A DNA stretch of 59,895 nt from a virus. The stretch lies in the IMG/VR virus record IMGVR_UViG_3300045988_040622. One strand, written 5' to 3'. Below, piece by piece: positions 1,306 through 59,895 of the stretch; within the stretch, counting starts at the first letter, position 1; each line of letters begins with the position of its first letter. The position numbers and the translations under genes are program-made. The notes under the pieces were generated by a model that searched no databases, was not told the DNA's origin, and saw only the letters and a program-made list of their open reading frames with translations.

Positions 1306-1330
1306 AACAGTCCGTACGGGAATCGAACCC
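1306..1330. repeat. attL core (copy of the tRNA-Glu 3' end)
   Basis: AACAGTCCGTACGGGAATCGAACCC is identical to 59809-59833. The sequences diverge immediately on both sides. Confidence 0.85.
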
Positions 1331-1380
1331 TAAAGTAATTGCCTTGAAATGGCTTAAAATAGCCATTCTTTCAATTTTTC

Positions 1381-1400
1381 TTTGAGTACCTTTGAGTACT
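1381..1400 (+). promoter_or_regulatory. Putative integrase arm-type binding sites (2 tandem copies)
   Basis: TTTGAGTACC then TTTGAGTACT, 50 bp from the attL core. The same 9-10-mer occurs twice at 59741-59762 near attR. Confidence 0.55.
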
Positions 1401-1406
1401 AGGGAC

Positions 1407-2603
1407 TCATAGTGCTTCGATTAAGTCAAGTTCCTGTCTCTTTTCCTCAATTCCGGTACGATCAAAATAATAATGATCTTTTGTGCAACTAATGTCTGTA
1501 TGCCCCATGGTATCAAGGATTGTGGACTCTTTCACTTTTCCGTCGAGCAAGATACTTCCATACGTCTTACGGATTTTGTGCGGAGATTTCACTTTCATTC
1601 GCAGTTCATGTTCGCAGATATACCGCAAACGTTCACGAAAGTTGTAGGATTTCAGCCGTTCTCCGTCTCTTTCAAATAGATACTCCCCAAAGGGATTTCT
1701 CTTTCGTACTTCATCAAGAATCCATTTGTACTTATCCGGCAGTATGGCAAATCGCAATCCGGCTTCTGATTTCGGGAAATCTTTGACCTCATAGTGAAAA
1801 CCATCATCATCACGATAACGTGTTTCTGTAGAATTGATTGCAACCGTGTAGTTTTCAACATCTTTCCGCTTTAATGCCGACAATTCTCCGACACGTACCC
1901 CTGTCTTAAACATGAATAGCAATCCAAGGTTTACGATATCCAAGTGATTCCTCAAGTACATCTCCATGCGTTCCTTTTCATCCGGCATATATACTTGGTC
2001 TTTTGCCTGCCGGACTACGTGCTTAAACGCTTTTGGCGATATATCCATATCTTTTAGCGTGTATGTAATGGGAAACTTAACATACTTCTTCCGCTTGGCA
2101 TACTTAAAGATTCCATATATTAGCGTCCGGAAGTTTGAGAATGCCTTGGAAGTCATGTTGAAGTCATGGATGCTATTTCGTATGAACGTTTCAAGGTCGC
2201 ATTCGTCTACACTTTTGATTCTCTTATCCTTGATACCGTCAAAGTATCTTTGAAAATCCATTAAGTATCTGTCGTAGGTTGCCCTGCTGATTTCTTCAAG
2301 TTCCAACTTTTGCGAAATCCAGCGGTTGAAGATTTCCTCTACTGTAGGGTCATCCTCTCTCTCTTTCCAATAATCAATGATTTTCTGCTCGACCGCTTCT
2401 CTGCGCTTTGCCTTGATTTTACGTCTGCCTTTTACTTCATCCGGCAGATATGAGTACCAGTTCTCATCCTTTCCTTGATAGATTTTATAAGGGTTTTTGT
2501 TGAGTAATTTTTCTCTCTTTTGCATAGTGACTTGTTTCTGCACAAGTGCTATGTCTAGTATGCCACTATCAACGGCATATTTCAACAGTTCTTTTTCATC
2601 CAA
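1407..2603 (-). CDS. int: Tyrosine-type site-specific integrase
   Basis: 398 aa. The C-terminal catalytic region carries GVRVGELSALKRKDV, HKIRKTYGS and LGHTDISCTKDHYY (R..HxxR..Y pattern). The gene is adjacent to attL. Confidence 0.9.
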   Translation of the reverse strand: MDEKELLKYAVDSGILDIALVQKQVTMQKREKLLNKNPYKIYQGKDENWYSYLPDEVKGRRKIKAKRREAVEQKIIDYWKEREDDPTVEEIFNRWISQKLELEEISRATYDRYLMDFQRYFDGIKDKRIKSVDECDLETFIRNSIHDFNMTSKAFSNFRTLIYGIFKYAKRKKYVKFPITYTLKDMDISPKAFKHVVRQAKDQVYMPDEKERMEMYLRNHLDIVNLGLLFMFKTGVRVGELSALKRKDVENYTVAINSTETRYRDDDGFHYEVKDFPKSEAGLRFAILPDKYKWILDEVRKRNPFGEYLFERDGERLKSYNFRERLRYICEHELRMKVKSPHKIRKTYGSILLDGKVKESTILDTMGHTDISCTKDHYYFDRTGIEEKRQELDLIEAL

Positions 2604-24472: not shown

Positions 24473-24475
24473 GTC

Positions 24476-24856: not shown

Positions 24857-24911
24857 AATATCTTCCTTTCTATGCGTGAAATGGTTTAGGTATATCTTTA
24901 GTTTTCCTAGA

Positions 24912-36456: not shown

Positions 36457-37146
36457 TTACTTTTTCAGTTTTCCCTTTTTCAGAAGAGAAATCATCTTTG
36501 AATTTTCCTCTGATGTAAACTTAAAATTGGAAAATCCGTTCTTTTTTGCGATTTCCGCGCGATGTTCTTTCGATACATCATCTTCTCCAACCGCTTTTAA
36601 TGCTTCAACGATTGATCCAGATTTTCCGGTATACATCGAATAATACTTGCTTGCATTTTTCTTTGCTCCAATTACAACGATTGCAGTGTGACCTTTTGTA
36701 CGCGTCACAAGAATGTCCCCGTTGTAAAGCAGTTCTCCGATTCGGTAAGAACCAGCATCGGTAAACAAGCCGGATTTCAAAAGAATGATTCTTTCGTTTG
36801 CAGTATTGAAATCTCCTACATCCTTCCCGAATGCATGGATAATACAAGCGCGTACAAGAGAAGAACAATCGCATTCCGTCTTAACCTTTGCGCTAATGCC
36901 ATGTTTAATGACTCCGTAGCGTTCCGATTGGTCATAGCCGATGTTTTTGTTGCCACACGCAATCTTCATAGCTTCAGCTAACTTCTCCGCAACCTTATTA
37001 TCCTTTGCTCTTAACACATTCCATCCCTTAGAATGGTTGTAAAACTTCTGCGTAGACACTTCCTGTCCGGTCTGGTCTCCGGCTTTTCCGCCAGAATAGC
37101 AGTTTCCGTGTTCATCGTGTCGCGCACTTCCGATAATTACTGCCAT
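36457..37146 (-). CDS. NlpC/P60-type peptidoglycan hydrolase (endolysin or virion-associated lysin candidate)
   Basis: CDCSSLVRACI (catalytic Cys context) and GDILVTRTKGHTAIVVIG (His context), with an extra C-terminal domain. Confidence 0.55.
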   Translation of the reverse strand: MAVIIGSARHDEHGNCYSGGKAGDQTGQEVSTQKFYNHSKGWNVLRAKDNKVAEKLAEAMKIACGNKNIGYDQSERYGVIKHGISAKVKTECDCSSLVRACIIHAFGKDVGDFNTANERIILLKSGLFTDAGSYRIGELLYNGDILVTRTKGHTAIVVIGAKKNASKYYSMYTGKSGSIVEALKAVGEDDVSKEHRAEIAKKNGFSNFKFTSEENSKMISLLKKGKLKK

Positions 37147-45006: not shown

Positions 45007-45438
45007 CTATGACATCTTTAAATACGTGTTACCATATTTTTCTTCAAATGCTTTAAGAGCCTTTCCGTGAAGTCTGATAATTTGTCTCCATGAGTATTTC
45101 ATTTCTGTAGCGATAACTTCAAAAGTTTTCTTTTCGATATATCTTGAAAACAAAATATTATAGCAATCTTCATTCTCTATGCCGTCTATTTGCCCTATAA
45201 TCAAGTCTTTTTTTTCAATGTATTCATCTATCATGTTGTCAAGATTATGCTCCATTTCGTCAATTTTGGCGTATGTAGAGCCTATTTTATCTGGGTCAGA
45301 TGAAACCATTACTCTTTCTTCATTTTTTACCGCCAATATGCTGTGGGAAAGCTCTCTAAGCTGTGATATCTCTGCCAGCTTATTATTTATCATTCTATTG
45401 AGTCTGCTTATTTGGTTCAAATAATCCTTGGTTGTCAT
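45007..45438 (-). CDS. Sigma-70 region-4-like phage transcriptional regulator (DUF1492/ArpU-RinA-like)
   Basis: DYLNQISRLNRMINNKLAEISQLREL at the N-terminus and ILFSRYIEKKTFEVIATEMKYSWRQIIRLHGKALKAFE at the C-terminus (HTH). Confidence 0.6.
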   Translation of the reverse strand: MTTKDYLNQISRLNRMINNKLAEISQLRELSHSILAVKNEERVMVSSDPDKIGSTYAKIDEMEHNLDNMIDEYIEKKDLIIGQIDGIENEDCYNILFSRYIEKKTFEVIATEMKYSWRQIIRLHGKALKAFEEKYGNTYLKMS

Positions 45439-47272: not shown

Positions 47273-48478
47273 TTATTCGTTTGCTTTGAAATTGTAAATC
47301 GGTTTTATAATGTCAACTATTTCAACAGTGTCTTTTATATTTCCAATTATTTCATCCATTGTTTTATATGCCATAGGACTTTCATCAATCGTAGATGTAT
47401 TTACAGATGTTGTAAATATTCCATCCATTGCTTTTTGATACTCTTCTAGCAAAATGCTTTCTTTTGCCTTTGATCTGCTCATTGTTCGACCTGCTCCATG
47501 CGGTGCTGAATAATTCCAATTTTCATTTCCCTTGCCAATTCCCAAAATGCAACCGTCACGCATGTTTATCGGTATCAGTACCCTTTCCCCCATTTTTGCA
47601 GAAATAGCACCCTTGCGGACAATATTTGAATCATGGTCGATATAATTGTGAATGCACTCGAAGTAATCCGGCATATCTACATCAACGCCCCACTCCATAT
47701 GGTTGCATATAATTTGCGCAATCATGACACGGTTGATATATGCAAACTTCTGACAAATTCTCATATCATGCAGATAATCTTCCCTGTATTTGCCCTCTAA
47801 ATAGCACAAATCCTTTGGAATCTTCGGATTAACTGCCTTGAAATTCCTGTGCAACTCTGCTATCGCACTTTGAATTTCAGATTTTCTTCCGGCGGCTTTG
47901 TACTGTTTGATAAGTCTGTCCTGTTCTTCATACAGTTTATCTTTGCCGCTCATAAGTTCAAATGCAAGGTTTTGATAATAGTCAGCTACCTGTTTCCCGA
48001 GATTACGGCTACCGGTATGAATAACAAGATACTTTTCTCCATCTTCCGCAATATCAATCTCAATGAAGTGATTCCCGCCGCCAAGAGTGCCGATAGACCG
48101 CTCAAGCCGTTTTGTATCTCGTAATTCTCGGTAGCACTTCAAATCCTGTAATTCCTCAAATCTGATGATTCTTCCCTCATGCACATCTCTTCCGCTTGGA
48201 ATATAAGAACGAATCACGTTATCCAGCTTTTCGAAGTCAATATCTGCCTGACCAAGGCTTACGCAAAGCATGCCACAACCAATATCAACGCCGACAATGT
48301 TCGGGATAACCTTTTCCCCAAGGTCTGCCGTAAATCCAATAACACATCCCTTTCCCGCGTGAACATCCGGCATGATACGAACTTTACAATCTTTGAATGC
48401 ATCCTGTGCAAGCAATAATTCAATTTGATCTACCGCTTCCTGTTCAACGTTCTTGGTAAATATTTTCAAATCACTCAT
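47273..48478 (-). CDS. rtcB: RtcB RNA 3'-phosphate ligase
   Basis: 401 aa. MPDVHAGKG, GGGNHFIEI, HTGSRNLG and APHGAGR are the conserved RtcB metal and GTP motifs. Confidence 0.9.
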   Translation of the reverse strand: MSDLKIFTKNVEQEAVDQIELLLAQDAFKDCKVRIMPDVHAGKGCVIGFTADLGEKVIPNIVGVDIGCGMLCVSLGQADIDFEKLDNVIRSYIPSGRDVHEGRIIRFEELQDLKCYRELRDTKRLERSIGTLGGGNHFIEIDIAEDGEKYLVIHTGSRNLGKQVADYYQNLAFELMSGKDKLYEEQDRLIKQYKAAGRKSEIQSAIAELHRNFKAVNPKIPKDLCYLEGKYREDYLHDMRICQKFAYINRVMIAQIICNHMEWGVDVDMPDYFECIHNYIDHDSNIVRKGAISAKMGERVLIPINMRDGCILGIGKGNENWNYSAPHGAGRTMSRSKAKESILLEEYQKAMDGIFTTSVNTSTIDESPMAYKTMDEIIGNIKDTVEIVDIIKPIYNFKANE

Positions 48479-48666
48479 TATCTCTCTCCAATTCTATTGA
48501 TTTTCCCGCATTTCGGACATTTAATTTCAGCCTGTCCGTTGAATTTGCCTAAAAGACGGTTGCATTTGCCGCAACGCGCATCTGTCAATCCCTCCGGTGG
48601 ATTCATACGCTGCGCAAATGCGCCATGCTCTATTGATTCAATTACTTCTGCCATACTCATTTCCAA
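48478..48666 (-). CDS. Com-like zinc-ribbon protein (Mu Com family pattern)
   Basis: ARCGKCNRLLGKFNGQAEIKCPKCGKINRIG. Its TAA shares one base with the rtcB ATG (TAATG). Confidence 0.6.
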   Translation of the reverse strand: MEMSMAEVIESIEHGAFAQRMNPPEGLTDARCGKCNRLLGKFNGQAEIKCPKCGKINRIGER

Positions 48667-48872
48667 TACACCCTAAACCCTTTCGCTTTATACTCTTCTA
48701 CGGCTTTTTTAAGGCTCATATCGTCCTCATACTTTTCATTCAACATAATCACCACATTATCTTTTTCAATGCCGTATATGTTGCAATTAGCAAGTTTCTT
48801 AGCCGTTCCAAGAATAGCTTTTGCTTGCTTGCGGCTCATTTCATAGGTTTGGGTTCCCATATTAACTGTCAT
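48657..48872 (-). CDS. Hypothetical protein
   Basis: 71-aa ORF overlapping the com-like start. Confidence 0.5.
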   Translation of the reverse strand: MTVNMGTQTYEMSRKQAKAILGTAKKLANCNIYGIEKDNVVIMLNEKYEDDMSLKKAVEEYKAKGFRVYWK

Positions 48873-48922
48873 TTCTCATAAACCTCCTTGTTTCCTCAAT
48901 TATTTTAGAGTCTCTAGCGGAA

Positions 48923-49069
48923 GTCATTTCAATATGGCTTTGTGGCAGTCTGCCAAACTTTTCCAAAGCATATTTTCTACCACTTCTCTTGAAATATCTA
49001 TTCCAAAATTTATCATCACTTCTTTAGATGTCGGTTGATACTCTGATAAGGGATTGTCAATGTTATTCA
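48923..49069 (-). CDS. Small hypothetical protein (below the ORF-track cutoff)
   Basis: 48 aa, MNNIDNPLSEYQPTSKEVMINFG... Its ATG overlaps the end of the upstream gene. Confidence 0.3.
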
Positions 49070-49323
49070 TTCTTCATAAACCTCTCAAAATCTTTCCTAC
49101 ACTTAGGGCATAAGTCATATGTACGACCAAACGGAAATAATATGTTTGAATGAATCTCTTTGATTTCTCCCCTTACGTTTCCATCTTCAAAAATGGGACT
49201 TGGAGTAAAATAATCACCAATCGGCATAAATTCAAATTCACTTATTGGTTTTACTTTTATTTCTTCGCCGCACCTGTCGCAAGCGAGCCATTCTTTTTGA
49301 TGTTTCATATAAACCACCCTCAC
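49063..49323 (-). CDS. Zinc-ribbon protein
   Basis: CDRCGEE...CPKCRKD. Confidence 0.5.
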   Translation of the reverse strand: MRVVYMKHQKEWLACDRCGEEIKVKPISEFEFMPIGDYFTPSPIFEDGNVRGEIKEIHSNILFPFGRTYDLCPKCRKDFERFMKNE

Positions 49324-49511
49324 TTATCACATTCGATTCCCGGAATAAATGTTCTTTTACCTATACAAGCATCTTCAAAAGTCGTAGTTTCTATTGAACA
49401 TCCGCAACTAACCGGGTCTAATGGACAATTTTCATGATTAATACATGTGCATAAAATTTCTTTTTCCTGCTTCATCATTCCACCGCCTTTCAAACTAACC
49501 CTAGCATACAT
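49320..49511 (-). CDS. Small Cys-rich protein
   Basis: 63 aa with several Cys. Confidence 0.4.
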   Translation of the reverse strand: MYARVSLKGGGMMKQEKEILCTCINHENCPLDPVSCGCSIETTTFEDACIGKRTFIPGIECDK

Positions 49512-49837
49512 AAAATATCAAGTCCTGATATTCTCTCCGCACCCTCTCTTGTGTGCATAAGAATATCTTTAAGTTTTTCATTTTCTGCATCGCTGTATTT
49601 ATTTCTATCATACGCTTCCGAAAAACAATAATATTTGCAATATCCATAGCCTGTACCAAGCATGTTTCCGTGAATGCTCTTTCCGACAATATCGTAATAT
49701 TTTGGTACTTTTAAAACGTTATGTTCTTCATCCATGGTACATTCCTTTTGCTCTGCTTCTAGTTTTGATTGAAGATATTTTAAAAAACTAACAATATCTT
49801 TTTCCGTTTTGGAAATATATAAAATAGTTTCTTTCAT
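49490..49837 (-). CDS. Hypothetical protein
   Basis: Start is trimmed to MKETILYISKTEKD after GGTGGAAG. Confidence 0.5.
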   Translation of the reverse strand: MKETILYISKTEKDIVSFLKYLQSKLEAEQKECTMDEEHNVLKVPKYYDIVGKSIHGNMLGTGYGYCKYYCFSEAYDRNKYSDAENEKLKDILMHTREGAERISGLDILCMLGLV

Positions 49838-50036
49838 TCTTCCACCAACTTTCTTCCGCAGATAGGGCAATAATTGATTTTTATATATCCAAGGCAACCA
49901 CTGTCTCCTGTGTCGATTAACACGCCAAATCCATTTTCGTCTTTGAAAATAAAATCTCCACCAGCGTATCTTTTTCATAATATTCATCATTGTTCATTGC
50001 TATGTTTTTGCAAAAATCACACATATTACACCTCAA

Positions 50037-50294
50037 TCAAAGTAATTTTTTCGGAACAATACGATGCAAAATGCCGTCCGCATCGCAATATGATTCTTCA
50101 CAATGACACGCCCATGGTTCGGGCATTGACAATCTTATGTAATCATCTAATGACAATTTCTGCGTCGCTGATCCTATAAGACCTAAACTATAATTTCCTG
50201 CATTTTCATATGGAGTTTTGCAATAAGGACACGCCTTTTTATCGGTTTCGATCGGTGTGCCACAATTCACGCAGTTTGTCATATTATACCCCAA
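50037..50294 (-). CDS. Zinc-ribbon protein
   Basis: CVNCG...CPYC. The likely true start is the internal ATG at 50282. Confidence 0.5.
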   Translation of the reverse strand: MGYNMTNCVNCGTPIETDKKACPYCKTPYENAGNYSLGLIGSATQKLSLDDYIRLSMPEPWACHCEESYCDADGILHRIVPKKLL

Positions 50295-50301
50295 TCATAG
50301 C

Positions 50302-50330
50302 AAAAAACGGAATCCTCGTGAGGTTCCGTT
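50302..50330 (-). terminator. Terminator downstream of the tRNA cluster
   Basis: AACGGAA...TTCCGTT stem with inner CCT/AGG pairs, followed by TTTTTTG on the minus strand. Confidence 0.65.
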
Positions 50331-50359
50331 TCTTTCGTTTGATATAAATATTCCGCAAG

Positions 50360-50444
50360 CGCAGTGTATAGGATTCGAACCTACAAGGCGAATAAACGCC
50401 CGACCGGATAGCAACCGGCTCCAATTCCATTATGGGAACACTGC
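50360..50444 (-). tRNA. tRNA-Ser(GCU), type II with long variable arm
   Basis: GCAGTGT...ACACTGC acceptor, anticodon stem GCCGG/CCGGT with loop TTGCTAT, variable arm CGGGCGTTTATTCGCC, T arm GTAGG-TTCGAAT-CCTAT. Confidence 0.75.
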
Positions 50445-50609
50445 CGAATTGACAAGATGCACTCGATCAAAGGCTACCAAACGCATAGGGATATTTTCGA
50501 GTGTCCTGTCTGAACTGCTTTTGTTGTACTTCCTACTCACAGCCTGTTTGTTGTGCGTTTCTTTTATAACCACTCGCATACTCCGCTAAAGAATGCGCAA
50601 GACCTCTCG

Positions 50610-50681
50610 TTGGGATTGCAGGAATCGAACCCGCGACAACCCGGATATAAGCCGTGTCTTCTACCACTGAATTAAATCCCA
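50610..50681 (-). tRNA. tRNA-Ile(UAU)
   Basis: TGGGATT/AATCCCA acceptor, anticodon loop CTTATAT (anticodon TAT), T arm GCGGG-TTCGATT-CCTGC. The anticodon stem has one mismatch. 72 nt. Confidence 0.7.
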
Positions 50682-50687
50682 ATACAG

Positions 50688-50758
50688 TGATCGGTACGAG
50701 ATTCGAACTCGTGTTACCACCGTGAAAGGGTGGTGTCTTACCGCTCGACTAACCGATC
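50688..50758 (-). tRNA. tRNA-Glu(UUC)
   Basis: GATCGGT/ACCGATC acceptor, CCACC-CTTTCAC-GGTGG anticodon arm, ACGAG-TTCGAAT-CTCGT T arm. 71 nt. Confidence 0.85.
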
Positions 50759-50985
50759 ATAACCGCCACGAGACGGTTAGCAATATGTTTTACGTGCTAT
50801 GCGTTACACGATCATGCGCCGTGGGATAGACGCATGATAGAATACCACCGGACGGTCTCGCACCGTCCTTAACAGAATCGTCCTAGTGGCGAAAGGAGGA
50901 ACCCAAATGCTTGAATCACTCAACCAAGGGTTCAAGTACATATGAAAAACATACGTGGCTACATGGAACGTCAGCATGTAACCAA

Positions 50986-51057
50986 TTAGGCTACCGGGAT
51001 TCGAACCCGGGAATACAGGAATCAAAATCCTGTGCCTTACCGCTTGGCGATAGCCCA
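50986..51057 (-). tRNA. tRNA-Gln(UUG)
   Basis: TGGGCTA/TAGCCTA acceptor, CAGGA-TTTTGAT-TCCTG anticodon arm, CCGGG-TTCGAAT-CCCGG T arm. 72 nt. Confidence 0.85.
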
Positions 51058-51264
51058 TCATTTCCAAATGACCATAATATTCATGGCAAAAATCGCGTAT
51101 GAAAGCAAATACCCCATTGCGTTTGAATTGTCTGTCTGCTTTACCTGTCCTCCCATAAGTCCAAGTATTACAAGGGCATCTATCGCCGTAGCGATTATAT
51201 TTAAAATCATATCAATATCCCCCATCCTCAAAGCTGTGTTCCTGTTTGAATCGTTCCATTTCAT
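51058..51264 (-). CDS. Small membrane protein (start uncertain, possibly 51210)
   Basis: Hydrophobic core ILNIIATAIDALVILGLMGG and AMGYLLSYAIFAMNIMVIW. It abuts tRNA-Gln. Confidence 0.4.
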   Translation of the reverse strand: MKWNDSNRNTALRMGDIDMILNIIATAIDALVILGLMGGQVKQTDNSNAMGYLLSYAIFAMNIMVIWK

Positions 51265-54223: not shown

Positions 54224-54275
54224 TTACATTATATATAGTTAGTGCTTAATTGTCAATACTTAATTAGTGCTTAAT
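54224..54275 (+). repeat. 52-bp operator module, copy 1 (two TTAGTGCTTAAT boxes)
   Basis: TTACATTATATATAGTTAGTGCTTAATTGTCAATACTTAATTAGTGCTTAAT matches 54495-54546 at 50 of 52 positions. Confidence 0.7.
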
Positions 54276-54278
54276 TTA

Positions 54279-54470
54279 TTATTTTTTCATTCTATCCATT
54301 TTATCGAGTTCCGCAAGAATCAATTCTCTAGCAAATGCGCTTGTTTTTAATCCGTATGAGTTGATTCTCTCTATTGTTCCAAGTGGCAATATAATGTTTA
54401 TTCTATCTTTATTGCTCATGCATTTCTTTACCGCTTGCCTGTTCTTTTCCGCTTTTGTGTTTTCGTCCAT
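54279..54470 (-). CDS. Ribbon-helix-helix (Arc/CopG-like) DNA-binding protein
   Basis: 63 aa. RINIILPLGTIERINSYGLKTSAFARELILAEL fits beta-alpha-alpha. The repeated operator modules flank it. Confidence 0.55.
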   Translation of the reverse strand: MDENTKAEKNRQAVKKCMSNKDRINIILPLGTIERINSYGLKTSAFARELILAELDKMDRMKK

Positions 54471-54494
54471 ATTCCTGCACCTCCGTATTTTTTC

Positions 54495-54546
54495 TTACAT
54501 TATATATAATTAGTGCTTAATTGTCAATACCTAATTAGTGCTTAAT
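54495..54546 (+). repeat. 52-bp operator module, copy 2 (two TTAGTGCTTAAT boxes)
   Basis: Matches 54224-54275 at 50 of 52 positions. Confidence 0.7.
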
Positions 54547-54572
54547 AATAATGCACAATTCATAATATAATA

Positions 54573-54619
54573 TTAGTGCTTAATATTGTGTATTTTGTCA
54601 ATATACATTAGTGCCTAAT
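54573..54619 (+). promoter_or_regulatory. Two further operator boxes
   Basis: TTAGTGCTTAAT at 54573-54584 and TTAGTGCCTAAT at 54608-54619. Confidence 0.55.
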
Positions 54620-54897: not shown

Positions 54898-55152
54898 TTA
54901 TTTCTTCTCTTTCATTGCAATTTCTAAATCAAGCCCCAATGCATCCGCAATCTGCCGCATTTCCTTTTCTGAAAAGTTGTCACGTTTCATTTTTTGCGAA
55001 AGATTTTGTGAGCTGGTGTCAATAAGTCTTGCTAGATCGGTCACTCTTAATTCCTTTTCAATAAGCGTATGTTTTACGATTTTTGCAAACAATGTACCGC
55101 CTCCTCTCTCTTGACGTGTTTCAATAATATCATAAATAAATTTATTATTCAA
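54898..55152 (-). CDS. XRE-family HTH regulator
   Basis: IEKELRVTDLARLIDTSSQNLSQKMKRDNFSEKEMRQIADALG. Confidence 0.7.
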   Translation of the reverse strand: MNNKFIYDIIETRQERGGGTLFAKIVKHTLIEKELRVTDLARLIDTSSQNLSQKMKRDNFSEKEMRQIADALGLDLEIAMKEKK

Positions 55153-55173
55153 TTATTTAATTACAAACAATAC

Positions 55174-55201
55174 TTGACAATCACAAAATAAACCGTATAA
55201 T
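55174..55201 (+). promoter_or_regulatory. Near-consensus promoter of the rha gene
   Basis: TTGACA-16nt-TATAAT. Confidence 0.6.
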
Positions 55202-56170: not shown

Positions 56171-56203
56171 CCGGCGGCGATTCAAACCGCCGGATTTATT
56201 TTT
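56171..56203 (+). terminator. Terminator of the rha operon
   Basis: CCGGCGG-N9-CCGCCGG followed by ATTTATTTTT. Confidence 0.7.
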
Positions 56204-56348
56204 GCCCTAGCGCAACGATGTTTTCTTTCGTAAAAATCAAAGACCGCGCAGCATAATCACTTTTGCTCAACTCTTCTATCAGCCTTTCCCTAGTCATTTC
56301 CGGATTCGTCCGGTGCACGTACTGTAAGAGTTCTGAAATTTTATCCAT
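56196..56348 (-). CDS. Small hypothetical protein (below the ORF-track cutoff)
   Basis: 50 aa, MDKISELLQYVHRTNPEMTRERLIEELSKSDY... It has a TAATG overlap with the protease-like gene. Confidence 0.4.
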   Translation of the reverse strand: MDKISELLQYVHRTNPEMTRERLIEELSKSDYAARSLIFTKENIVALGQK

Positions 56349-56683
56349 TATGCAACAACCTCCATAAGTTCAATCAATAGTCTGTCCGCTATTTCAAATA
56401 CTTCTCTTCCGTATGTAGTCAAGAAGTCTGCTACAATTTCCTCGGTATCAATATCCATGTATACATTATATGAAAGACAGAACGCATGACATAATTCGTG
56501 GCATAACACACGGTCAAGGAATCTTCCGCGTAGATCATCCGCAAGATATATCGTTTTCGTGTCTCTGTCGGTCATGCCTACTGTTCTGCTTCCATCACTT
56601 CTCTGTAGCATATCGCTGTAACGTGATACTTTGACCAAATTCCAAATTTCATTGTTTATTGTGAACAATTTACCACCTCGCAA
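56348..56683 (-). CDS. ImmA/IrrE-like zinc metalloprotease (HExxH)
   Basis: 111 aa. VLCHELCHAF carries the HExxH motif in a small protein of ImmA/IrrE size. Confidence 0.55.
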   Translation of the reverse strand: MRGGKLFTINNEIWNLVKVSRYSDMLQRSDGSRTVGMTDRDTKTIYLADDLRGRFLDRVLCHELCHAFCLSYNVYMDIDTEEIVADFLTTYGREVFEIADRLLIELMEVVA

Positions 56684-56706
56684 ACAAAGAGGGCAAAATG
56701 CCCTCT
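56682..56706 (-). terminator. Terminator closing the attR-proximal cargo operon
   Basis: AGAGGGCA-TTT-TGCCCTCT followed by TTGTTTG on the minus strand. Confidence 0.6.
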
Positions 56707-56709
56707 CTA

Positions 56710-57390
56710 TTACATTTTCGTGACAAGCGTAGTCAGCTTTGTCTTGGTCAACTGTTTCTCTTCTGGGGACATACCGGAAAACAGTTCTGTCACATCTTCC
56801 GAAAGAGATTTCATGTACTTTTCAAGTTCTTTCATCTTTGCGTCCTTATCTTCCGGTGAATTTCCGTTATGCATTTCCTTTGTCTCCATGTAGCTTCTCC
56901 GGCTCATACCGGCTCTGCCCTCTCTTGCATCGTGAGTACCGGTACTCATGCCGTTATTTCCGCTCATAGGCTCTGAATAATACATCTTTCCCATACTCAT
57001 TCTGTCAAGGTCTCTCATTCGGTCGTATTCCGGCATTCTCTCCCATTCGTGGTAATCTTCTGGCATCTGATGATAATACGGTGGTTCTACATATCCTCTG
57101 CGTGTTCCACGCCCTTTCGGTGCGAATCTGCCATTTGAGTACCGGTACTCATTGTAGTATCTTCTTACCGGATAATCCCCAAATTCTTCCACCATGCGCA
57201 TGATTTCTTCATCTTCAGACTTCTTCATTGCTTCAACAATGTTATAGTCCTTGTCAAAGCATACGATATTCTTTGCAATCTCCGTCCAATCCTTGAGATC
57301 ATCAAGGTTTTGTCCCTCAAAATTCTCAATTCCAATGCCGTCAACGTGGGCTTTCACGCAATCCATAATCTGTTTCGCAAACTTATGCAT
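56710..57390 (-). CDS. Low-complexity R/Y/M/E-rich protein (unknown function)
   Basis: 226 aa. The central region is RRYYNEYRYSNGRFAPKGRGTRRGYVEPPYYHQMPEDYHEWERMPEYDRMRDLDRMSMGKMYY. RBS is GGGAGG. Confidence 0.6.
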   Translation of the reverse strand: MHKFAKQIMDCVKAHVDGIGIENFEGQNLDDLKDWTEIAKNIVCFDKDYNIVEAMKKSEDEEIMRMVEEFGDYPVRRYYNEYRYSNGRFAPKGRGTRRGYVEPPYYHQMPEDYHEWERMPEYDRMRDLDRMSMGKMYYSEPMSGNNGMSTGTHDAREGRAGMSRRSYMETKEMHNGNSPEDKDAKMKELEKYMKSLSEDVTELFSGMSPEEKQLTKTKLTTLVTKM

Positions 57391-57394
57391 AATA

Positions 57395-57814
57395 TCAAGC
57401 CTCCCTTACTGCAATCAAATTACTGTTCTGAACCTCGATAGCCTGTGTGGACGCATTCTGCACGGCTACGGTACTGCAACAACCGCATGGCACATCAACA
57501 TATGCTTGTGCTGATACATTAAAGAAATTCTCAACTGCCGCAGGGGTCACGATCATCTTTGTTGACTGTAAAGGCTCTCCGTCTACTGCAATGGCAAGCG
57601 AAATCTCTCCAACTGTGCCGCCTGTCGGAATCTGAATGTTGCCGGAATACGATACCAAAAATCTAGCTTTGCACTGATTGGTGATACCTCTTAGCTTGAT
57701 AATTCCACTTCCCTGTCTGTGTACGATACATTTTGTTCCGTTCACTGCTGTTTCTGTGAATGCCACATCTTCTCCAGCGGCAACGGTTTGTAATGCAATT
57801 CCTGTTACTTCCAT
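57395..57814 (-). CDS. Beta-rich protein resembling BclA-C-terminal/C1q-TNF-like jelly-roll domains (tentative)
   Basis: Start is trimmed to MEVTGIALQTVAAGEDVAF. The sequence is alternating and beta-rich, ending ...VQNASTQAIEVQNSNLIAV. The resemblance is by eye only. Confidence 0.5.
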   Translation of the reverse strand: MEVTGIALQTVAAGEDVAFTETAVNGTKCIVHRQGSGIIKLRGITNQCKARFLVSYSGNIQIPTGGTVGEISLAIAVDGEPLQSTKMIVTPAAVENFFNVSAQAYVDVPCGCCSTVAVQNASTQAIEVQNSNLIAVREA

Positions 57815-57936
57815 TATTTTTACCTCTCTTTCATAAGAATAAGGGCAAACATTATAGTCTGCCCTTTGATTATAAGTAATACTGCATAGCAGACATGATT
57901 GAGTTAAACTCAATTAAGATACTCAATTATTTAGTT

Positions 57937-58698
57937 TTAGCAGCCACATCCTGTGTTGCATCCGCATCCATATGCATAAGCATTTGGGTTAGGTACAACA
58001 TATGCCGGAATAGCAGACGGATTTACCGCGTTGATAATCTGCTGTGTCTGAGCCGCCATCTGAGTTGTAAGCAGTGCGCTCTGACGATCTTGTGAAGCTG
58101 CTCTGCGAAGGTCATTATTTTCTGCCTGTAAGCTAGAGATTTTCTCATTGCAGAGATAATCAAGAATAGCGCGTGTTCCTGCATTCTGGCTGTCGATAAT
58201 GTCTCTCGTGTTGCTGTTCATGGTGTTCTGCAACGCGCAAGTGTTAGTTGCCATGTTGTAGTTTACACCTTGGATAGCTTCTCTTGTTTCGCAGCAGCAG
58301 TTTGCAAGCTGTGACTGTAATGCGTTTGTATTCTGCATGTTAGCGACTGTATCAGCATTGATAGCCTGCTGAATGCCGAATCCGGTCTGCAAAATGTTTG
58401 TGTTGACGCCATTCATGCCGGTTTGCACTGCATAGAATCCGTCACAAAGTCCGTTTGTAATGCCATCAAGTTTTGACACAACCGCCTGATTATCAAATCC
58501 GCGCTGGATTTCGCTTCCGACGCCACCATTCATTCCGTTTCCTCCGAATCCGTTACCGAATCCGCCCCATCCGAAAATGGCAAAGATAACGATAATGAAC
58601 CATAACCATGAGCCTTCTGCGCCCCATCCATTGTTATTTCCGTTTCCGTCAATGTTCGCAACAAGCGGAACGGATGCACAATTACCTGTGTTAAACAT
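57937..58698 (-). CDS. Membrane-anchored Gly/Asn/Gln-rich protein with Cys-rich C-terminus (unknown function)
   Basis: Start is trimmed to MFNTGN after GGAGG. It has a TM segment WLWFIIVIFAIFGWGGFGNGFGGNG, a Q/N-rich helical body with a CCC motif, and a YGCGCNTGCGC tail. Confidence 0.6.
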   Translation of the reverse strand: MFNTGNCASVPLVANIDGNGNNNGWGAEGSWLWFIIVIFAIFGWGGFGNGFGGNGMNGGVGSEIQRGFDNQAVVSKLDGITNGLCDGFYAVQTGMNGVNTNILQTGFGIQQAINADTVANMQNTNALQSQLANCCCETREAIQGVNYNMATNTCALQNTMNSNTRDIIDSQNAGTRAILDYLCNEKISSLQAENNDLRRAASQDRQSALLTTQMAAQTQQIINAVNPSAIPAYVVPNPNAYAYGCGCNTGCGC

Positions 58699-58751
58699 AG
58701 AATTTACCTCCATAATTCATTTTTATATACATAATCTTGCAAGAATTAGTA

Positions 58752-58979
58752 TCACATTCCTAATTGGCTTTTAAACGACTCAAAAGCCTTATCTGCGTCA
58801 ATTCCCTTTTCTTTGCACAAATTCCTAGCCATCTGCTCGATGCCCTTGGAATCCCCCTTCTGTGCCATCTGCATAGCATTTCTAGCCATGGGGTTACTCA
58901 TTACGCTGTTATTCCCCATCATTTGTTGTAAAAACTGCTGCGGGTTTTTCATTCCCTGTAACATCTGCATAGGATTCAT
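58752..58979 (-). CDS. Small Met/Gln/Asn-rich protein (unknown function)
   Basis: 75 aa, MNPMQMLQGMKNPQQFLQQMMGNNSVMSNPMARNAMQMAQ... It has a TAATG overlap with the upstream gene. Confidence 0.55.
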   Translation of the reverse strand: MNPMQMLQGMKNPQQFLQQMMGNNSVMSNPMARNAMQMAQKGDSKGIEQMARNLCKEKGIDADKAFESFKSQLGM

Positions 58980-59455
58980 TAAGACTCACTCTCCTTTTGT
59001 GTCCGCGAAGATTTTCTTTGCGTTTGCGAAGATAACTTATCTTCCAACTCTTCCATTTTTCCAAACAAACAATCCAATTTGTCAGTAATAGCCTTTGTCG
59101 CATCGTCAGACAGCCCTATTTCGATTTTTTTATCATCACTTGAATAATCTGCCATCTGCTCATTAAAAGGCTTGTAAACGGTCTTTCTTATTGTTCCATT
59201 GGCATCCCATTGTTTTGCTACGATTGCGCTCATGTCCTGCATCGGGAAAAACGCAACACTTCCATCCATAGGTACATCATTCGCCATGATCGCTGATTCC
59301 GACTGCACTACTTTTCCTTGGATTCCAAGAAACTGCGGTTGCATCTGCGGAATCTGTGGCTCTGGTTGTTGAAATCTCTGCATTGGGTTGTATTGATAAG
59401 CGGCATAGCTTGGGTTTGGGTTAAATGCCATATTCTGATTTTGCATCTGATACAT
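58979..59455 (-). CDS. Protein with Q/N/P-rich N-terminal region (unknown function)
   Basis: 158 aa, MYQMQNQNMAFNPNPSYAAYQYNPMQRFQQPEPQIPQMQPQ, then a globular part. RBS is GGAGGAAG. Confidence 0.6.
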   Translation of the reverse strand: MYQMQNQNMAFNPNPSYAAYQYNPMQRFQQPEPQIPQMQPQFLGIQGKVVQSESAIMANDVPMDGSVAFFPMQDMSAIVAKQWDANGTIRKTVYKPFNEQMADYSSDDKKIEIGLSDDATKAITDKLDCLFGKMEELEDKLSSQTQRKSSRTQKESES

Positions 59456-59573
59456 TCTCTTCCTCCAACACTTCCTTGATTGCGTGAATCATTGCTGACT
59501 GATACACAAGCGGAACCTTTGACACATCTTCTCTTGTTAAGATTTTTTCAAGAATTTCATCTGTAAATAACAT
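59421..59573 (-). CDS. Small hypothetical protein, first gene of the cargo operon (below the ORF-track cutoff)
   Basis: 50 aa, MLFTDEILEKILTREDVSKVPLVYQSAMIHAIKEVLEEE, after a GGAGGGA RBS. Confidence 0.4.
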   Translation of the reverse strand: MLFTDEILEKILTREDVSKVPLVYQSAMIHAIKEVLEEENVSDAKSEYGI

Positions 59574-59740
59574 TCCGCATCCCTCCTATGCTTATATTTT
59601 TGCATAAAAAAATACGGTTCTTCCGCAAAAAATAAGCAGAAAAACCGCATAAAAAAAGAACGCCAAAAGCGTTCCAAGTCTACCATTTTCAGAAAAGAAT
59701 CTAAAGCACTTGCGCAGACTCCTTTCTTTTGTGTTCAGTT

Positions 59741-59762
59741 TTTGAGTACCATTTTGAGTACC
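59741..59762 (+). promoter_or_regulatory. Putative integrase arm-type binding sites (2 copies)
   Basis: TTTGAGTACC at 59741-59750 and 59753-59762, 47 bp from the attR core. The same motif occurs at 1381-1400. Confidence 0.55.
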
Positions 59763-59808
59763 AATTTTTTTTAAGACGCCGCAAACACAGTGTTTATGCG
59801 ACTTTTAA

Positions 59809-59833
59809 AACAGTCCGTACGGGAATCGAACCC
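59809..59833. repeat. attR core (inside the tRNA-Glu 3' end)
   Basis: Identical to 1306-1330. Confidence 0.85.
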
Positions 59834-59882
59834 GTGTTTCCGCCGTGAGAGGGCGGCGTCTTAACCGCTTGACCAACGAACC
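59811..59882 (-). tRNA. tRNA-Glu(CUC), integration target
   Basis: Full 72-nt cloverleaf: acceptor GGTTCGT/ACGGACT (two G-U pairs), anticodon loop CTCTCAC, T arm ACGGG-TTCGATT-CCCGT. The 3' 23 nt lie within the att repeat. Confidence 0.9.
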
Positions 59883-59895
59883 GTGTATTATACTA

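What the first reader, a model, noticed from the sequence alone, without database searches (positions are those of the whole stretch)
56710..59573. Terminator-bounded cargo operon of extreme low-complexity proteins next to attR
Six co-directional genes at the attR-proximal end of the prophage end at their own terminator (56682-56706). None of them has an obvious phage role. They encode:
- a 50-aa protein;
- a protein with a Q/N/P-rich head (MYQMQNQNMAFNPNPSYAAYQYNPMQ...);
- a 75-aa Met/Gln/Asn-rich protein;
- a membrane-anchored Gly/Asn-rich protein with a CCC motif and a YGCGCNTGCGC tail;
- a beta-rich protein that resembles BclA-C-terminal/C1q-like domains by eye;
- an R/Y/M-rich protein.

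Tyr-, Cys-, Gly- and Gln-rich compositions together with a BclA-like domain recall spore coat and exosporium components of Firmicutes. Prophage-driven remodelling of the host spore or cell surface is therefore one speculative reading.

Superinfection exclusion or a condensate-forming system are alternatives.
Basis: inference. Interest (0 to 1): 0.65.

Follow-up and report, generated by a model that had tools for sequence, protein, structure and literature searches.

The report
Widespread uncharacterised phage membrane-protein cassette
The six odd low-complexity genes beside the prophage attachment site are real, but they are one copy of a conserved gene cassette of unknown function carried by thousands of phages, including virulent phages of non-sporulating bacteria, so it is unlikely to be spore-remodelling cargo.

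Summary
Observation confirmed. Six co-directional minus-strand genes (P1-P6, 59573-56710) lie between the attR core in tRNA-Glu and a strong hairpin terminator. All six are under strong purifying selection (pN/pS 0.03-0.09). The by-eye BclA/C1q call for P5 holds at fold level.

The genes are the local version of a conserved cassette: P2, P3, the membrane protein P4, a beta protein and P6, plus a small peptidase. Among 101 loci with enough flank, 97 carry a beta protein and 93 a P2-type protein. P4-like proteins fall into 2,072 clusters at 50% identity.

The cassette occurs in phages assigned to Lachnospiraceae, Clostridium, Bacilli, Bacteroides and Gastranaerophilales. These include virulent crAss-like phages and the lytic Butyrivibrio phage Ceridwen. 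It often follows holin or endolysin genes, and in TAG-recoded crAss-like phages it carries in-frame TAG codons like the neighbouring late genes.

The HExxH peptidase P7, just past the terminator, probably belongs to the unit. No Pfam, NCBIfam, PADLOC or PDB-sequence match explains any core protein.

Best guess, at low confidence: a peptidase-matured, membrane-anchored assembly acting at the cell envelope late in infection. A spore-surface role is unlikely as the general function.

The parts
59810..59883 (-). Host tRNA-Glu(CTC). Its 3' end (59809-59833) is the attR core GGTTCGATTCCCGTACGGACTGTT.
   Evidence: ARAGORN. The 25-nt repeat also occurs at 1306-1330. Junction compared with the episomal attP in L016.
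59574..59808 (-). Phage arm of attP upstream of P1. It holds two GGTACTCAAA repeats (possible integrase arm sites; a reading from the sequence, not tested) and two hairpin/U-tract elements (59657-59675 and about 59600-59640) that would insulate the cassette from tRNA or integrase read-through.
   Evidence: Sequence. Terminator scan. Folds: dG -15.7 kcal/mol (z -4.1) and -14.1 kcal/mol (z -3.2). No sigma-70 consensus promoter was found here.
59421..59573 (-). P1, an acidic 50-aa protein. It is lineage-specific, seen only in the window lineage and in Dulem virus 39.
   Evidence: pN/pS 0.09
58979..59455 (-). P2: a Q/N/P/Y-rich head, a small conserved domain (by eye a beta domain, motif DG...F....IY.K...GT..Y) and a C-terminal helical, coiled-coil-like tail. 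Core cassette family.
   Evidence: Alignment A5. A P2-type protein is present in 93 of 101 loci. pN/pS 0.06. No Pfam or PDB-sequence match.
58752..58979 (-). P3: a 75-aa Met/Gln/Asn-rich protein with repeated NPxxxxxxM motifs. Core cassette family.
   Evidence: pN/pS 0.05
57937..58698 (-). P4, the hallmark protein. It has a short acidic N-tail and a Gly/Trp-flanked hydrophobic helix (about residues 29-47). Three long predicted helices follow (72-104, 110-157, 163-219) carrying the invariant CCC. It ends in a Pro-rich linker (PxIPAY) and a GCGC tail.
   Evidence: phrog_16490, 2e-59. Alignment A2 invariants. 2,072 clusters at 50% identity; 138 of the best 150 keep CCC. AF2 gave secondary structure only, at pLDDT 30.
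57841..57866 (-). 10-bp GC-rich hairpin in the 122-nt P4-P5 spacer, with a weak U tract. Possible attenuator or RNA-stability element. A palindrome ATTGAGTTTAACTCAAT lies upstream of it.
   Evidence: (dG -17.9 kcal/mol, z -5.4)
57395..57814 (-). P5: a stand-alone 139-aa C1q/TNF/BclA-CTD-like beta jelly-roll with a CGCC cluster.
   Evidence: phrog_20016, 6e-67. AF2 pLDDT 76.6. Foldseek against PDB and BFVD. 4,234 clusters at 90% identity. pN/pS 0.03.
56710..57390 (-). P6: a helical N-domain, an Arg/Tyr/Met/Gly/Asp/Glu-rich low-complexity middle (disordered by composition) and a C-terminal helix.
   Evidence: Homologues follow P5 in other P7-type loci. pN/pS 0.05, with frequent indels.
56682..56706 (-). 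Intrinsic-terminator-like hairpin between P6 and P7. It probably acts as an attenuator, because P7's RBS follows directly.
   Evidence: Fold: dG -19.2 kcal/mol, z -4.6. An equivalent hairpin plus U tract occupies the same spacer in Dulem virus 39. RBS geometry.
56348..56668 (-). P7: a small HExxH metallopeptidase (ImmA/SprT/DUF6782-like, all matches below the curated cut-offs). Probable peptidase component of the cassette.
   Evidence: Pfam and PHROG hits. P7-type and Cys-His-Asp-type enzymes are nearly mutually exclusive across loci: 2/9/79/11, Fisher p = 3.5e-6. pN/pS 0.12.
56196..56348 (-). P8: a 50-aa protein translationally coupled to P7. Lineage-specific.
   Evidence: pN/pS 0.07
1306..2603 (-). 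attL core (1306-1330) and tyrosine integrase (1407-2603). In the circular phage genome the integrase reads directly towards attP and the cassette.

Best explanation
What it is.

Shown:
- P1-P6, very probably together with P7/P8, are one lineage's version of a self-contained, horizontally mobile phage gene cassette.
- The conserved core is a P2-type protein, P3, the single-pass Cys-rich membrane protein P4, a small beta protein (usually the C1q/TNF/BclA-like P5) and a low-complexity P6-type protein. A small peptidase accompanies them.
- The peptidase is usually an unnamed protein of about 125 aa with invariant Cys, His and Asp. In the window lineage it is the HExxH protein P7 instead.

How it most likely works (inferred):
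- P4 is anchored in the cytoplasmic membrane by its Gly/Trp-flanked helix and carries a helical stalk of about 190 residues studded with Cys.
- The stand-alone jelly-roll P5 docks on a peptide of a partner, as the stand-alone TNF-like ExsFA/BxpB trimer docks the N-terminal peptides of BclA and F-Anchor.
- P2, P3 and P6 (Q/N-, Met/Gln- and Arg/Tyr-rich) act as scaffold, chaperone or matrix.
- The peptidase, made in small amounts by read-through of the P6 hairpin, matures one component.
- The assembly is made with the late genes. It acts at the cell envelope around lysis or release, for example in egress or in protecting progeny.
- It is not a lysogen-specific or spore-specific cargo.

The existence and composition of the cassette are well supported. 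The timing and the envelope or egress role are inference.
For: Cassette reality:
- Dulem virus 39 keeps P1-P8 in the same order.
- Eight MAG loci and 115 IMG/VR loci keep the order P2-P3-P4-beta-P6.
- Of 101 loci with at least 2.5 kb on both sides of P4, 97 have a beta protein, 93 a P2-type protein and 81 the Cys-His-Asp enzyme.
- The P4 family has 2,072 clusters at 50% identity, all stand-alone proteins of roughly 100-370 aa.
- All genes are under purifying selection.
- The cassette is fixed in this lineage.

Not lysogeny- or spore-specific:
- It occurs in crAss-like Suoliviridae, in Bacteroides phage C3_41T2LP and in the lytic Butyrivibrio phage Ceridwen (PMC7372960).

Late or lysis neighbourhood:
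- It sits directly after holin and LysB/FtsL-like genes in cr109_1, and after the same LysB/FtsL-like gene in cr52_1.
- It sits after holin or endolysin genes in Dulem 40, Dulem 33, bajarodcaudo 5 and Ceridwen.
- It sits between head genes in Dulem 35.
- Endolysin-type Pfam domains are the commonest class among 146 flanking proteins of 50 dereplicated loci.
- In TAG-recoded crAss-like phages the P4-like gene carries 2 in-frame TAG codons and the P2b-like gene 7-9, like the adjacent lysis and tail genes. Recoding marks late structural and lysis genes (bioRxiv 10.1101/2021.08.26.457843).

Membrane anchor and stalk:
-.

P5 fold:
-.

Peptidase membership:
- The two enzyme types are nearly mutually exclusive, p = 3.5e-6.
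- A conserved hairpin followed by an RBS lies before P7 in both the window and Dulem 39.
- HExxH genes also lie downstream of the cassette in L095 and C3_41T2LP.
Against: - There are no expression data for this phage. Here the cassette is not next to lysis or late genes. It sits alone between attR and a convergent Rha operon, flanked by terminators, which is the classic layout of a prophage-expressed moron.
- In temperate Firmicutes phages the slot after the lysin is also the classic lysogenic-conversion slot, so adjacency to lysis genes is ambiguous there.
- In C3_41T2LP-like phages the cassette follows recombination genes.
- P4 topology could not be decided: there are few charged residues on either side of the helix.
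- P4 could not be modelled (pLDDT 30).
- No physical interaction has been tested.
- The loci sampled are not phylogenetically independent.
- The P6 families (window type versus Ceridwen type), the P2 and P2b families, and the two beta-protein families (P5 versus B2) are linked by position and composition only. hhalign gave probabilities of 10%, 3.5% and 0.1%.
Confidence: 0.35

Rival explanations
1. Prophage-expressed accessory (moron) cassette. It is transcribed autonomously in the lysogen and places P4, with its partners, at the membrane. There it excludes superinfecting phages, blocks DNA entry or otherwise defends the cell, or it remodels the vegetative cell surface.
For: - The block sits next to attR, insulated by hairpins on both sides, convergent with the neighbouring operon and separate from the main lytic transcript.
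- Integrases or recombinases flank the cassette in several other phages.
- It includes a membrane protein.
- Its position varies between genomes, as for mobile defence or moron cassettes.
Against: - It is present in virulent crAss-like phages and in Ceridwen.
- TAG recoding implies late translation in crAss-like phages.
- It needs five to seven proteins, most without signal peptides.
- There are no PADLOC hits apart from a coiled-coil ZorA match at E 0.008.
- No sigma-70 consensus promoter lies upstream of P1.
- Homing endonucleases repeatedly target the cassette. Such elements usually sit in conserved core genes; this is general background, not a result here.
Confidence: 0.25
2. Virion-associated accessory structure. 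P4 would be a trimeric helical fibre with the C1q-like P5 as its knob, and P2, P3 and P6 would be assembly chaperones or further fibre parts. The structure would decorate the head or tail for adhesion.
For: - C1q/TNF-like knobs are typical fibre tips. Foldseek hits include the cyanophage A-1(L) short tail fibre, the phi812 central spike knob, and giant-virus collagen/C1q proteins.
- The crAss annotators labelled the P4-like proteins 'spike protein/glycoprotein' or 'viral fiber'.
- The cassette lies among tail genes in crAss-like phages and between head genes in Dulem 35.
- TAG recoding indicates late translation.
Against: - P4 has a segment of about 19 residues with TM-grade hydrophobicity, conserved in 85 of the 150 best representative proteins, several of which are fragments.
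- In most genomes the cassette lies outside the structural operon, behind its own terminators.
- Three of the five proteins are low-complexity.
- A dedicated peptidase is unusual for fibres.
Confidence: 0.15
3. The prophage cargo adds coat- or exosporium-like proteins (Cys-, Tyr-, Gly- and Gln-rich proteins plus a BclA/ExsFA-like trimer) to the host spore or mother cell.
For: - The P5 fold best matches exosporium proteins F-BclA, ExsFA, BxpB and BclA.
- The proteins lack signal peptides, as expected for assembly in the mother-cell cytoplasm.
- The composition is Cys/Tyr/Gln-rich.
- The host lineage has spo0A, and Roseburia can form spores (PMC11913394).
Against: - The same cassette occurs in phages of Bacteroides/crAss hosts and in a Butyrivibrio fibrisolvens phage seen only in lytic growth.
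- Sequence identity to the exosporium proteins is only 8-16%.
- There are no collagen-like repeats.
- There are no Pfam or NCBIfam sporulation-family hits.
- The C1q/TNF fold is common in phage fibres.
Confidence: 0.05
4. Membrane-tethered condensate. The Arg/Tyr-rich P6, the Q/N-rich P2 and the Met/Gln-rich P3 phase-separate on the P4 anchor to organise a replication or assembly compartment.
For: The compositions resemble eukaryotic sticker-and-spacer condensate proteins, and these features are conserved across phyla.
Against: This is an argument from composition only. No nucleic-acid-binding or replication domains are present. It does not explain the jelly-roll protein, the Cys clusters or the peptidase.
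Confidence: 0.05

Closest known systems
Bacillus exosporium C1q/TNF-like trimers: BclA C-terminal domain, F-BclA, ExsFA/BxpB (PDB 1wck, 9h38, 7r1m, 8d02, 9h3d)
   Same: P5 has the same beta jelly-roll fold (Foldseek E 3.5e-6 to 1e-4, TM 0.67-0.75). Like ExsFA/BxpB it is a stand-alone domain of about 140 aa with no signal peptide. Its partners are Cys-rich.
   Different: Sequence identity is only 8-16%. There is no Pfam hit and no collagen-like stalk. P5 is encoded by phages, including phages of non-sporulating hosts. Trimerisation and peptide docking are untested.
Phage envelope-lysis proteins with an N-terminal anchor and a helical ectodomain (i-spanins Rz/LysB; T4-type class III holin)
   Same: P4 has a single N-proximal hydrophobic helix followed by long helices with conserved Cys and a Pro-rich end. 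In many phages the gene lies next to holin, endolysin or LysB-like genes.
   Different: There is no sequence similarity. No lipoprotein partner is present. The cassette occurs in phages of Gram-positive hosts, which need no spanin. P4 always comes with four other families. In the window it is not near the endolysin-like gene.
Lysogenic-conversion or superinfection-exclusion morons of temperate siphophages (for example Sie2009 and Ltp, which lie between the integrase and the repressor)
   Same: The block is att-proximal, bounded by terminators, and contains a membrane protein.
   Different: It is a multi-gene unit conserved across phyla and present in virulent phages. It shows no homology to these systems, and lysogen expression has not been shown.
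Protease-primed class I viral fusion proteins (influenza HA2)
   Same: This is an analogy only. Both have a Gly-rich hydrophobic segment followed by long helices, and both have an associated protease. The crAss annotators' 'spike glycoprotein' label has the same flavour.
   Different: The HA2 match is not significant (E 0.25). No second membrane anchor is present and no cleavage site has been shown.
ImmA/IrrE and SprT-type small HExxH metallopeptidases
   Same: P7 has the HExxH motif and weak Pfam matches to DUF6782, SprT-like and Peptidase_M78 (E 2e-4 to 8e-3).
   Different: All scores are below the curated cut-offs. There is no adjacent XRE-family substrate gene. In other cassettes the same position is filled by a Cys-His-Asp enzyme.

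Membership tests
BclA_C / C1q-TNF jelly-roll superfamily (P5) | Compact beta jelly-roll fold of about 130-140 residues | tested here: met
   The AF2 model has pLDDT 76.6 and pTM 0.73. 26 PDB matches reach E <= 1e-3. The top 17 are BclA, F-BclA, ExsFA or BxpB, and most of the rest are TNF-family proteins or phage fibre knobs. BFVD matches include 'BclA protein' and C1q-domain proteins.
BclA_C / C1q-TNF jelly-roll superfamily (P5) | Sequence-level family membership | tested here: not met
   There is no Pfam or NCBIfam hit, no PDB sequence hit, and only 8-16% identity in the structural alignments.
BclA-type exosporium glycoprotein | N-terminal collagen-like GXX repeats, with exosporium targeting | tested here: not met
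   P5 is a bare 139-aa domain, and no GXX repeat array occurs in any cassette protein.
BclA_C / C1q-TNF jelly-roll superfamily (P5) | Homotrimer formation | not testable with these tools
   Only monomer prediction was available.
Two-component spanin | i-spanin: N-terminal TM segment plus a coiled-coil periplasmic domain | tested here: inconclusive
   P4 has the architecture, but it has no homology and its topology is undecided.
Two-component spanin | o-spanin lipoprotein partner with a lipobox, and a Gram-negative host | tested here: not met
   No lipobox-bearing ORF occurs among P1-P8 (sequences). The host is Roseburia faecis, a member of the Bacillota.
Holin | Small membrane protein encoded next to the endolysin | tested here: not met
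   P4 is 253 aa. The only endolysin-like-domain protein in the window (PF25309, 1.7e-35) maps most likely to 36457-37146, about 21 kb away.
Lysogenic-conversion moron | Autonomous transcription unit with its own promoter and terminator | tested here: inconclusive
   Hairpin terminators lie on both sides, but no sigma-70 consensus promoter lies upstream of P1.
Lysogenic-conversion moron | Expressed from the repressed prophage, and dispensable for lytic growth | not testable with these tools
   This needs RNA-seq and deletion mutants. The distribution in virulent phages argues against it.
Known anti-phage defence systems (PADLOC-DB) | A profile match to any component | tested here: not met
   The only hit is a coiled-coil match to ZorA at E 0.008.
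ImmA/IrrE (Peptidase_M78) anti-repressor peptidase (P7) | HExxH motif and a family profile match above the cut-off | tested here: inconclusive
   The HELCH motif is present. Scores are Peptidase_M78 16.4 bits (cut-off 22), SprT-like 20.1 (25.6) and DUF6782 20.9 (27).
ImmA/IrrE (Peptidase_M78) anti-repressor peptidase (P7) | Adjacent cognate XRE-family repressor gene | tested here: not met
   The neighbour P8 (50 aa) has no HTH hit. The CI-like XRE gene lies at 23647-24012.

The most novel reading that the evidence does not exclude
The cassette could be a previously unrecognised, pan-phylum phage machine. In this reading P4 is a peptidase-primed membrane protein with a Gly-rich, fusion-peptide-like segment and a triple-helix Cys-rich stalk. 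It is capped by a C1q/TNF-like trimer and embedded in a low-complexity protein matrix. The machine remodels or ruptures the host envelope at the end of infection. That would be a new class of lysis or egress device shared by crAss-like phages and by abundant phages of gut Firmicutes.
Probability: 0.15. Interest if true: 0.8.

Novelty: categorically new. Interest (0 to 1): 0.6.

Why it matters
The host phage is one of the commonest Roseburia faecis phages in human gut data. More than 600 IMG/VR contigs carry P5, which falls into 4,234 clusters at 90% identity.

The cassette's hallmark protein P4 spans more than 2,000 clusters at 50% identity, in phages of at least three bacterial phyla, including crAss-like phages. 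Yet none of its five core families has a Pfam, NCBIfam or PADLOC model. Their PHROGs are labelled 'unknown function', and no paper in the searched library describes it.

A conserved multi-protein unit this widespread probably performs a general step of phage biology in anaerobes that is not yet in the textbooks. Three cultured phage-host pairs carry it (Ceridwen with Butyrivibrio fibrisolvens, CPD1 with Clostridium perfringens, C3_41T2LP with Bacteroides uniformis), so the question is directly testable.

If the cassette turns out to be a moron or defence cassette, it is still a new kind with unusual protein chemistry.

Tried and rejected
1. 'The cassette replaces a missing lysis cassette.' No holin or endolysin follows the tail fibres. 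However, a batch Pfam scan found an endolysin-like-domain protein (PF25309, 1.7e-35), most likely ORF 36457-37146. Idea dropped.

2. Structure of P4. AF2 with the only permitted, shallow alignment gave pLDDT 30, so no fold search was done. A profile search intended to diversify the alignment returned almost only near-identical sequences.

3. Sequence searches of PDB chains with profiles of P5, P2, P4 and the Cys-His-Asp enzyme. Nothing was significant.

4. Pfam, NCBIfam and PADLOC on P1-P8, and Pfam on accessory proteins of other cassettes. These gave only sub-threshold peptidase hits for P7, DUF7841 for one accessory protein and Sigma70_r4 for an upstream regulator.

5. Homology between the two beta-protein types (P5 versus B2), between P2 and P2b, and between the P6 types. 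hhalign probabilities were 0.1-10%. They are treated as positional analogues only.

6. Genome-collection scan. The tool chose Gly-rich patterns and returned only 9 loci.

7. Shared promoter motifs between the upstream regions of cassette genes and other operons of the window. None were found.

8. Literature searches on crAss lysis, BclA with prophage, DUF7841 and Roseburia prophages. No description of the cassette was found.

9. P4 topology by the positive-inside rule. Too few charged residues to decide.

Full report
**1. The observation**

| Gene | Coordinates | Length |
|---|---|---|
| P1 | 59421-59573 | 50 aa |
| P2 | 58979-59455 | 158 aa |
| P3 | 58752-58979 | 75 aa |
| P4 | 57937-58698 | 253 aa |
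| P5 | 57395-57814 | 139 aa |
| P6 | 56710-57390 | 226 aa |

- Each gene is preceded by a GGAGG-type ribosome-binding site.
- The stated compositions are accurate.
- P4 has 11 Cys, a CCC triplet, a GCGCNTGCGC end and one strongly hydrophobic stretch.
- The hairpin at 56682-56706 folds at -19.2 kcal/mol (z -4.6) and is followed by a U tract.
- Two further hairpin/U-tract elements lie between the tRNA and P1, and a 10-bp hairpin sits between P4 and P5.
- Across 67-79 full-length, near-identical copies of each gene in IMG/VR contigs (36-62 distinct alleles), pN/pS is 0.03-0.09 for P1-P6 and 0.07-0.12 for the two downstream genes. All are therefore real, constrained genes, including the low-complexity ones.

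**2. The prophage and its ends**

- A 25-nt core occurs at 59809-59833, the 3' end of tRNA-Glu(CTC) at 59810-59883. It recurs at 1306-1330, next to a tyrosine integrase at 1407-2603.
- An IMG/VR contig shows the uninterrupted junction integrase-attP-P1.
- Of 40 contigs with this integrase that extend at least 3.5 kb beyond it, 39 show the same junction followed by P1-P8. The phage therefore excises, and the cassette is fixed in the lineage.
- The host is Roseburia faecis, from the NCBI MAG name on an identical-length P4 and a 2.06-Mb contig.
- On the minus strand the layout is: attR, cassette, hairpin, P7 and P8. These converge on a plus-strand Rha operon. Next come a divergent promoter region at about 55.15-55.2 kb, tRNAs with RtcB, terminase, head and tail. 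Beyond a CI-like XRE gene at 23647-24012(+) come anti-repressor, SSB, SbcC, RecT and DnaB, then methyltransferases, integrase and attL.

**3. What the proteins are**

- Pfam, NCBIfam and PADLOC give nothing for P1-P6.
- PHROGs place P4 in phrog_16490 (2e-59) and P5 in phrog_20016 (6e-67). Both are labelled unknown function.
- AF2 on P5 with a shallow alignment gave an all-beta model (pLDDT 76.6, pTM 0.73).
- Foldseek against the PDB put F-BclA, ExsFA, BxpB and BclA C-terminal domains first (E 3.5e-6 to 1e-4, TM 0.67-0.75). A phage fibre head, TNF-family ligands and a phage spike knob followed.
- Against BFVD the best matches are stand-alone gut-phage proteins of about 135 aa, one of them named 'BclA protein', and giant-virus collagen/C1q proteins.
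- P4 could not be modelled (pLDDT 30). The predicted secondary structure is a hydrophobic helix at residues 30-41 and three long helices at 72-219, followed by an unstructured Pro- and Cys-rich tail.
- P7 (likely 56348-56668) is a small HExxH protein with sub-threshold matches to DUF6782, SprT-like and Peptidase_M78.

**4. The cassette is widespread**

- tblastn against GenBank phages found P4 and P5 adjacent in many gut-phage contigs. P4-like genes also occur in Butyrivibrio phage Ceridwen, in Clostridium perfringens phages, in Bacteroides uniformis phage C3_41T2LP and in eight crAss-like (Suoliviridae) records.
- Reading the neighbours showed the same set of protein types in the same order:
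  - a Q/N/P/Y-headed protein with a small conserved domain and a coiled-coil tail (P2 type);
  - a Met/Gln/Asn-rich protein of about 75 aa (P3);
  - the P4 type, with invariant CCC, SQ, Pro and terminal GCGC (alignment A2);
  - a beta-rich protein of 125-180 aa;
  - an Arg/Tyr/Asp/Glu-rich protein (P6 type).
- Dulem virus 39 keeps P1 to P8 in order right after its integrase.
- Eight MAG loci keep the order. Their records name Lachnospiraceae, Pseudobutyrivibrio, Bacilli, Bacillales, Clostridium, Bacteroidales and Gastranaerophilales; one is an unclassified bacterium.
- With 115 further IMG/VR loci and iterated local HMMs, I examined 101 loci that have at least 2.5 kb on both sides of P4:

| Component | Loci (of 101) |
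|---|---|
| Beta protein (P5 type 81, a second type 'B2' 16) | 97 |
| P2-type protein | 93 |
| P3 | at least 63 |
| P6-type protein | at least 66 |
| Cys-His-Asp protein of about 125 aa | 81 |
| Small sigma-70-region-4 protein upstream | 50 |
| P7-type HExxH protein | 11 |

- The P4 family comprises 2,072 clusters at 50% identity (1,130 at E <= 1e-10). All are stand-alone proteins, and 138 of the best 150 retain CCC.
- Caveats:
  - The loci are not independent samples.
  - The two beta-protein types are not detectably homologous (hhalign probability 0.1%).
  - The P2 and P2b types are not linked either (3.5%).
  - The window-type and Ceridwen-type P6 are linked only weakly (10%).

**5. P7 belongs to the unit**

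- P7-type and Cys-His-Asp-type enzymes are nearly mutually exclusive across cassettes: both 2, P7 only 9, Cys-His-Asp only 79, neither 11 (Fisher p = 3.5e-6).
- HExxH genes also follow the cassette in a Gastranaerophilales locus and in C3_41T2LP.
- In the window, the P6 hairpin's U tract runs straight into P7's ribosome-binding site.
- Dulem virus 39 has a different hairpin plus U tract in the same spacer, followed directly by the RBS.
- The simplest reading is an attenuator that lets a minority of transcripts reach the peptidase.

**6. Context and timing**

- In crAss-like cr109_1 the order is holin, LysB/FtsL-like, P6-like, P4-like, beta, P2b-like. cr52_1 has the same order after an unannotated gp20.
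- In Dulem 40 the cassette follows a holin.
- In Dulem 33, bajarodcaudo 5 and Ceridwen it follows the endolysin or holin.
- In Dulem 35 it lies between minor and major capsid genes.
- In C3_41T2LP-like phages it follows recombination genes.
- Among 146 proteins flanking 50 dereplicated cassettes, endolysin-type domains are the commonest functional class: CW_7, PG_binding_1, CHAP, ELLD, Glucosaminidase and GH25. Integrases or recombinases flank about five.
- In the two TAG-recoded crAss-like genomes the P4-like gene has 2 in-frame TAG codons and the P2b-like gene 7-9, like the adjacent lysis and tail genes.
- Recoded stops mark late structural and lysis genes in such phages (bioRxiv 10.1101/2021.08.26.457843).
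- Ceridwen was seen only in the lytic cycle, and its authors consider it virulent (PMC7372960).
- Homing-endonuclease genes interrupt or abut the cassette in four lineages.
- Together this points to a phage-cycle function, probably late, rather than a lysogen-only cargo. For the window phage itself no expression evidence exists, and its layout also fits a moron.

**7. Ideas rejected**

- I tested whether the cassette stands in for a missing lysis module. No lysin follows the tail fibres, but a batch Pfam scan found an endolysin-like-domain protein (1.7e-35). It is most likely ORF 36457-37146, which resembles ORFs lying a few kb upstream of the cassette in several Ceridwen-like loci. The idea was dropped.
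- Profile searches of PDB sequences gave only non-significant coiled-coil or HA2 matches for P4, and nothing for P2, P5 or the Cys-His-Asp enzyme.

**8. Verdict**

The BclA-like fold, the att-proximal position and the terminators hold. The 'cargo' and spore readings are not supported as the general function.
- The best-supported statement is that this is a conserved, mobile, peptidase-associated phage cassette. It is built around a Cys-rich single-pass membrane protein and a C1q/TNF-like (or other beta) protein, with three low-complexity partners.
- My committed mechanism, at confidence 0.35: a membrane-anchored, peptidase-matured assembly made late and acting at the envelope around lysis or release.
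- Rivals: prophage-expressed exclusion or defence cassette (0.25), virion fibre or decoration module (0.15), spore-surface remodelling (0.05), condensate (0.05).
- No described system matches, so I rate it categorically new in kind, with function unproven.

Noticed in passing
window 1-80 and 59816-59895; 81-1305: The first and last 80 bases are identical. They cover part of tRNA-Glu plus 12 nt upstream. Either a second tRNA-Glu copy follows 1.3 kb of host flank, or the contig was closed through the repeat. The flank carries an 'endonuclease' ORF at 224-979 (phrog_19169).
   Followed up: partly
window 31405-36400: The tape-measure gene appears split. Both 35189-36400 and 31405-34011 match phrog_1535 (tape measure protein). 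They are separated by a GIY-YIG/HNH homing-endonuclease ORF at 34218-35099, which suggests an intron or a mobile insertion.
   Followed up: no
window 47273-51057: A phage-borne tRNA cluster (Ser-GCT, Ile-TAT, Glu-TTC, Gln-TTG; 50359-51057) lies next to an RtcB-type tRNA ligase gene (47273-48478). This pairing suggests repair of host-cleaved tRNAs.
   Followed up: no
window 36457-37146; 24113-24985: No lysis cassette follows the tail fibres. The only endolysin-like-domain (PF25309) protein most likely sits inside the tail module, just upstream of the tape-measure gene. A two-TM 68-aa ORF at 51058-51264 is a possible holin.
   Followed up: partly
window 54224-54585 and 55152-55201: Three operator-like repeats (TAGTGCTTAATTGTCAATAC.TAATTAGTGCTTAAT) are present. 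A perfect TTGACA-16-TATAAT promoter drives the Rha operon, divergent from a small HTH gene at 54898-55152. The CI-like XRE repressor candidate is far away, at 23647-24012(+).
   Followed up: no
L219 8784-8856 (R. faecis MAG GCA_046997445.1): A very close relative of the phage (P4 99% identical) sits next to tRNA-Thr(CGT) rather than tRNA-Glu. Its early region is interrupted by TniB-like genes. Host spo0A lies about 7 kb from the prophage end.
   Followed up: partly
L085 4122-4745; L001 9428-10222; L096 4067-4618; L101 7282-7902: Homing-endonuclease genes (HNH, NUMOD4) are inserted within or beside the cassette in C. perfringens phage CPD1, Ceridwen, Dulem virus 33 and C3_41T2LP-like phages.
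   Followed up: no
L003 and L099 (crAss-like cr52_1, cr109_1): The P2b-like gene carries 7-9 in-frame TAG codons in 188 codons, as dense as the LysB-like gene. It may be the 'fourth, unknown' preferentially recoded family mentioned in bioRxiv 10.1101/2021.08.26.457843.
   Followed up: partly
window 57815-57936: The P4-P5 spacer holds a palindrome (ATTGAGTTTAACTCAAT), a direct repeat TAATTGAGT and two TATAAT boxes around the hairpin. This could be an internal, regulated promoter for P5 and P6.
   Followed up: no
window 29334-30194 and 45007-45438: A Bro-N-domain gene sits inside the tail-gene block. A sigma-70-region-4/DUF1492-like gene sits between the large terminase and the portal gene.
   Followed up: no
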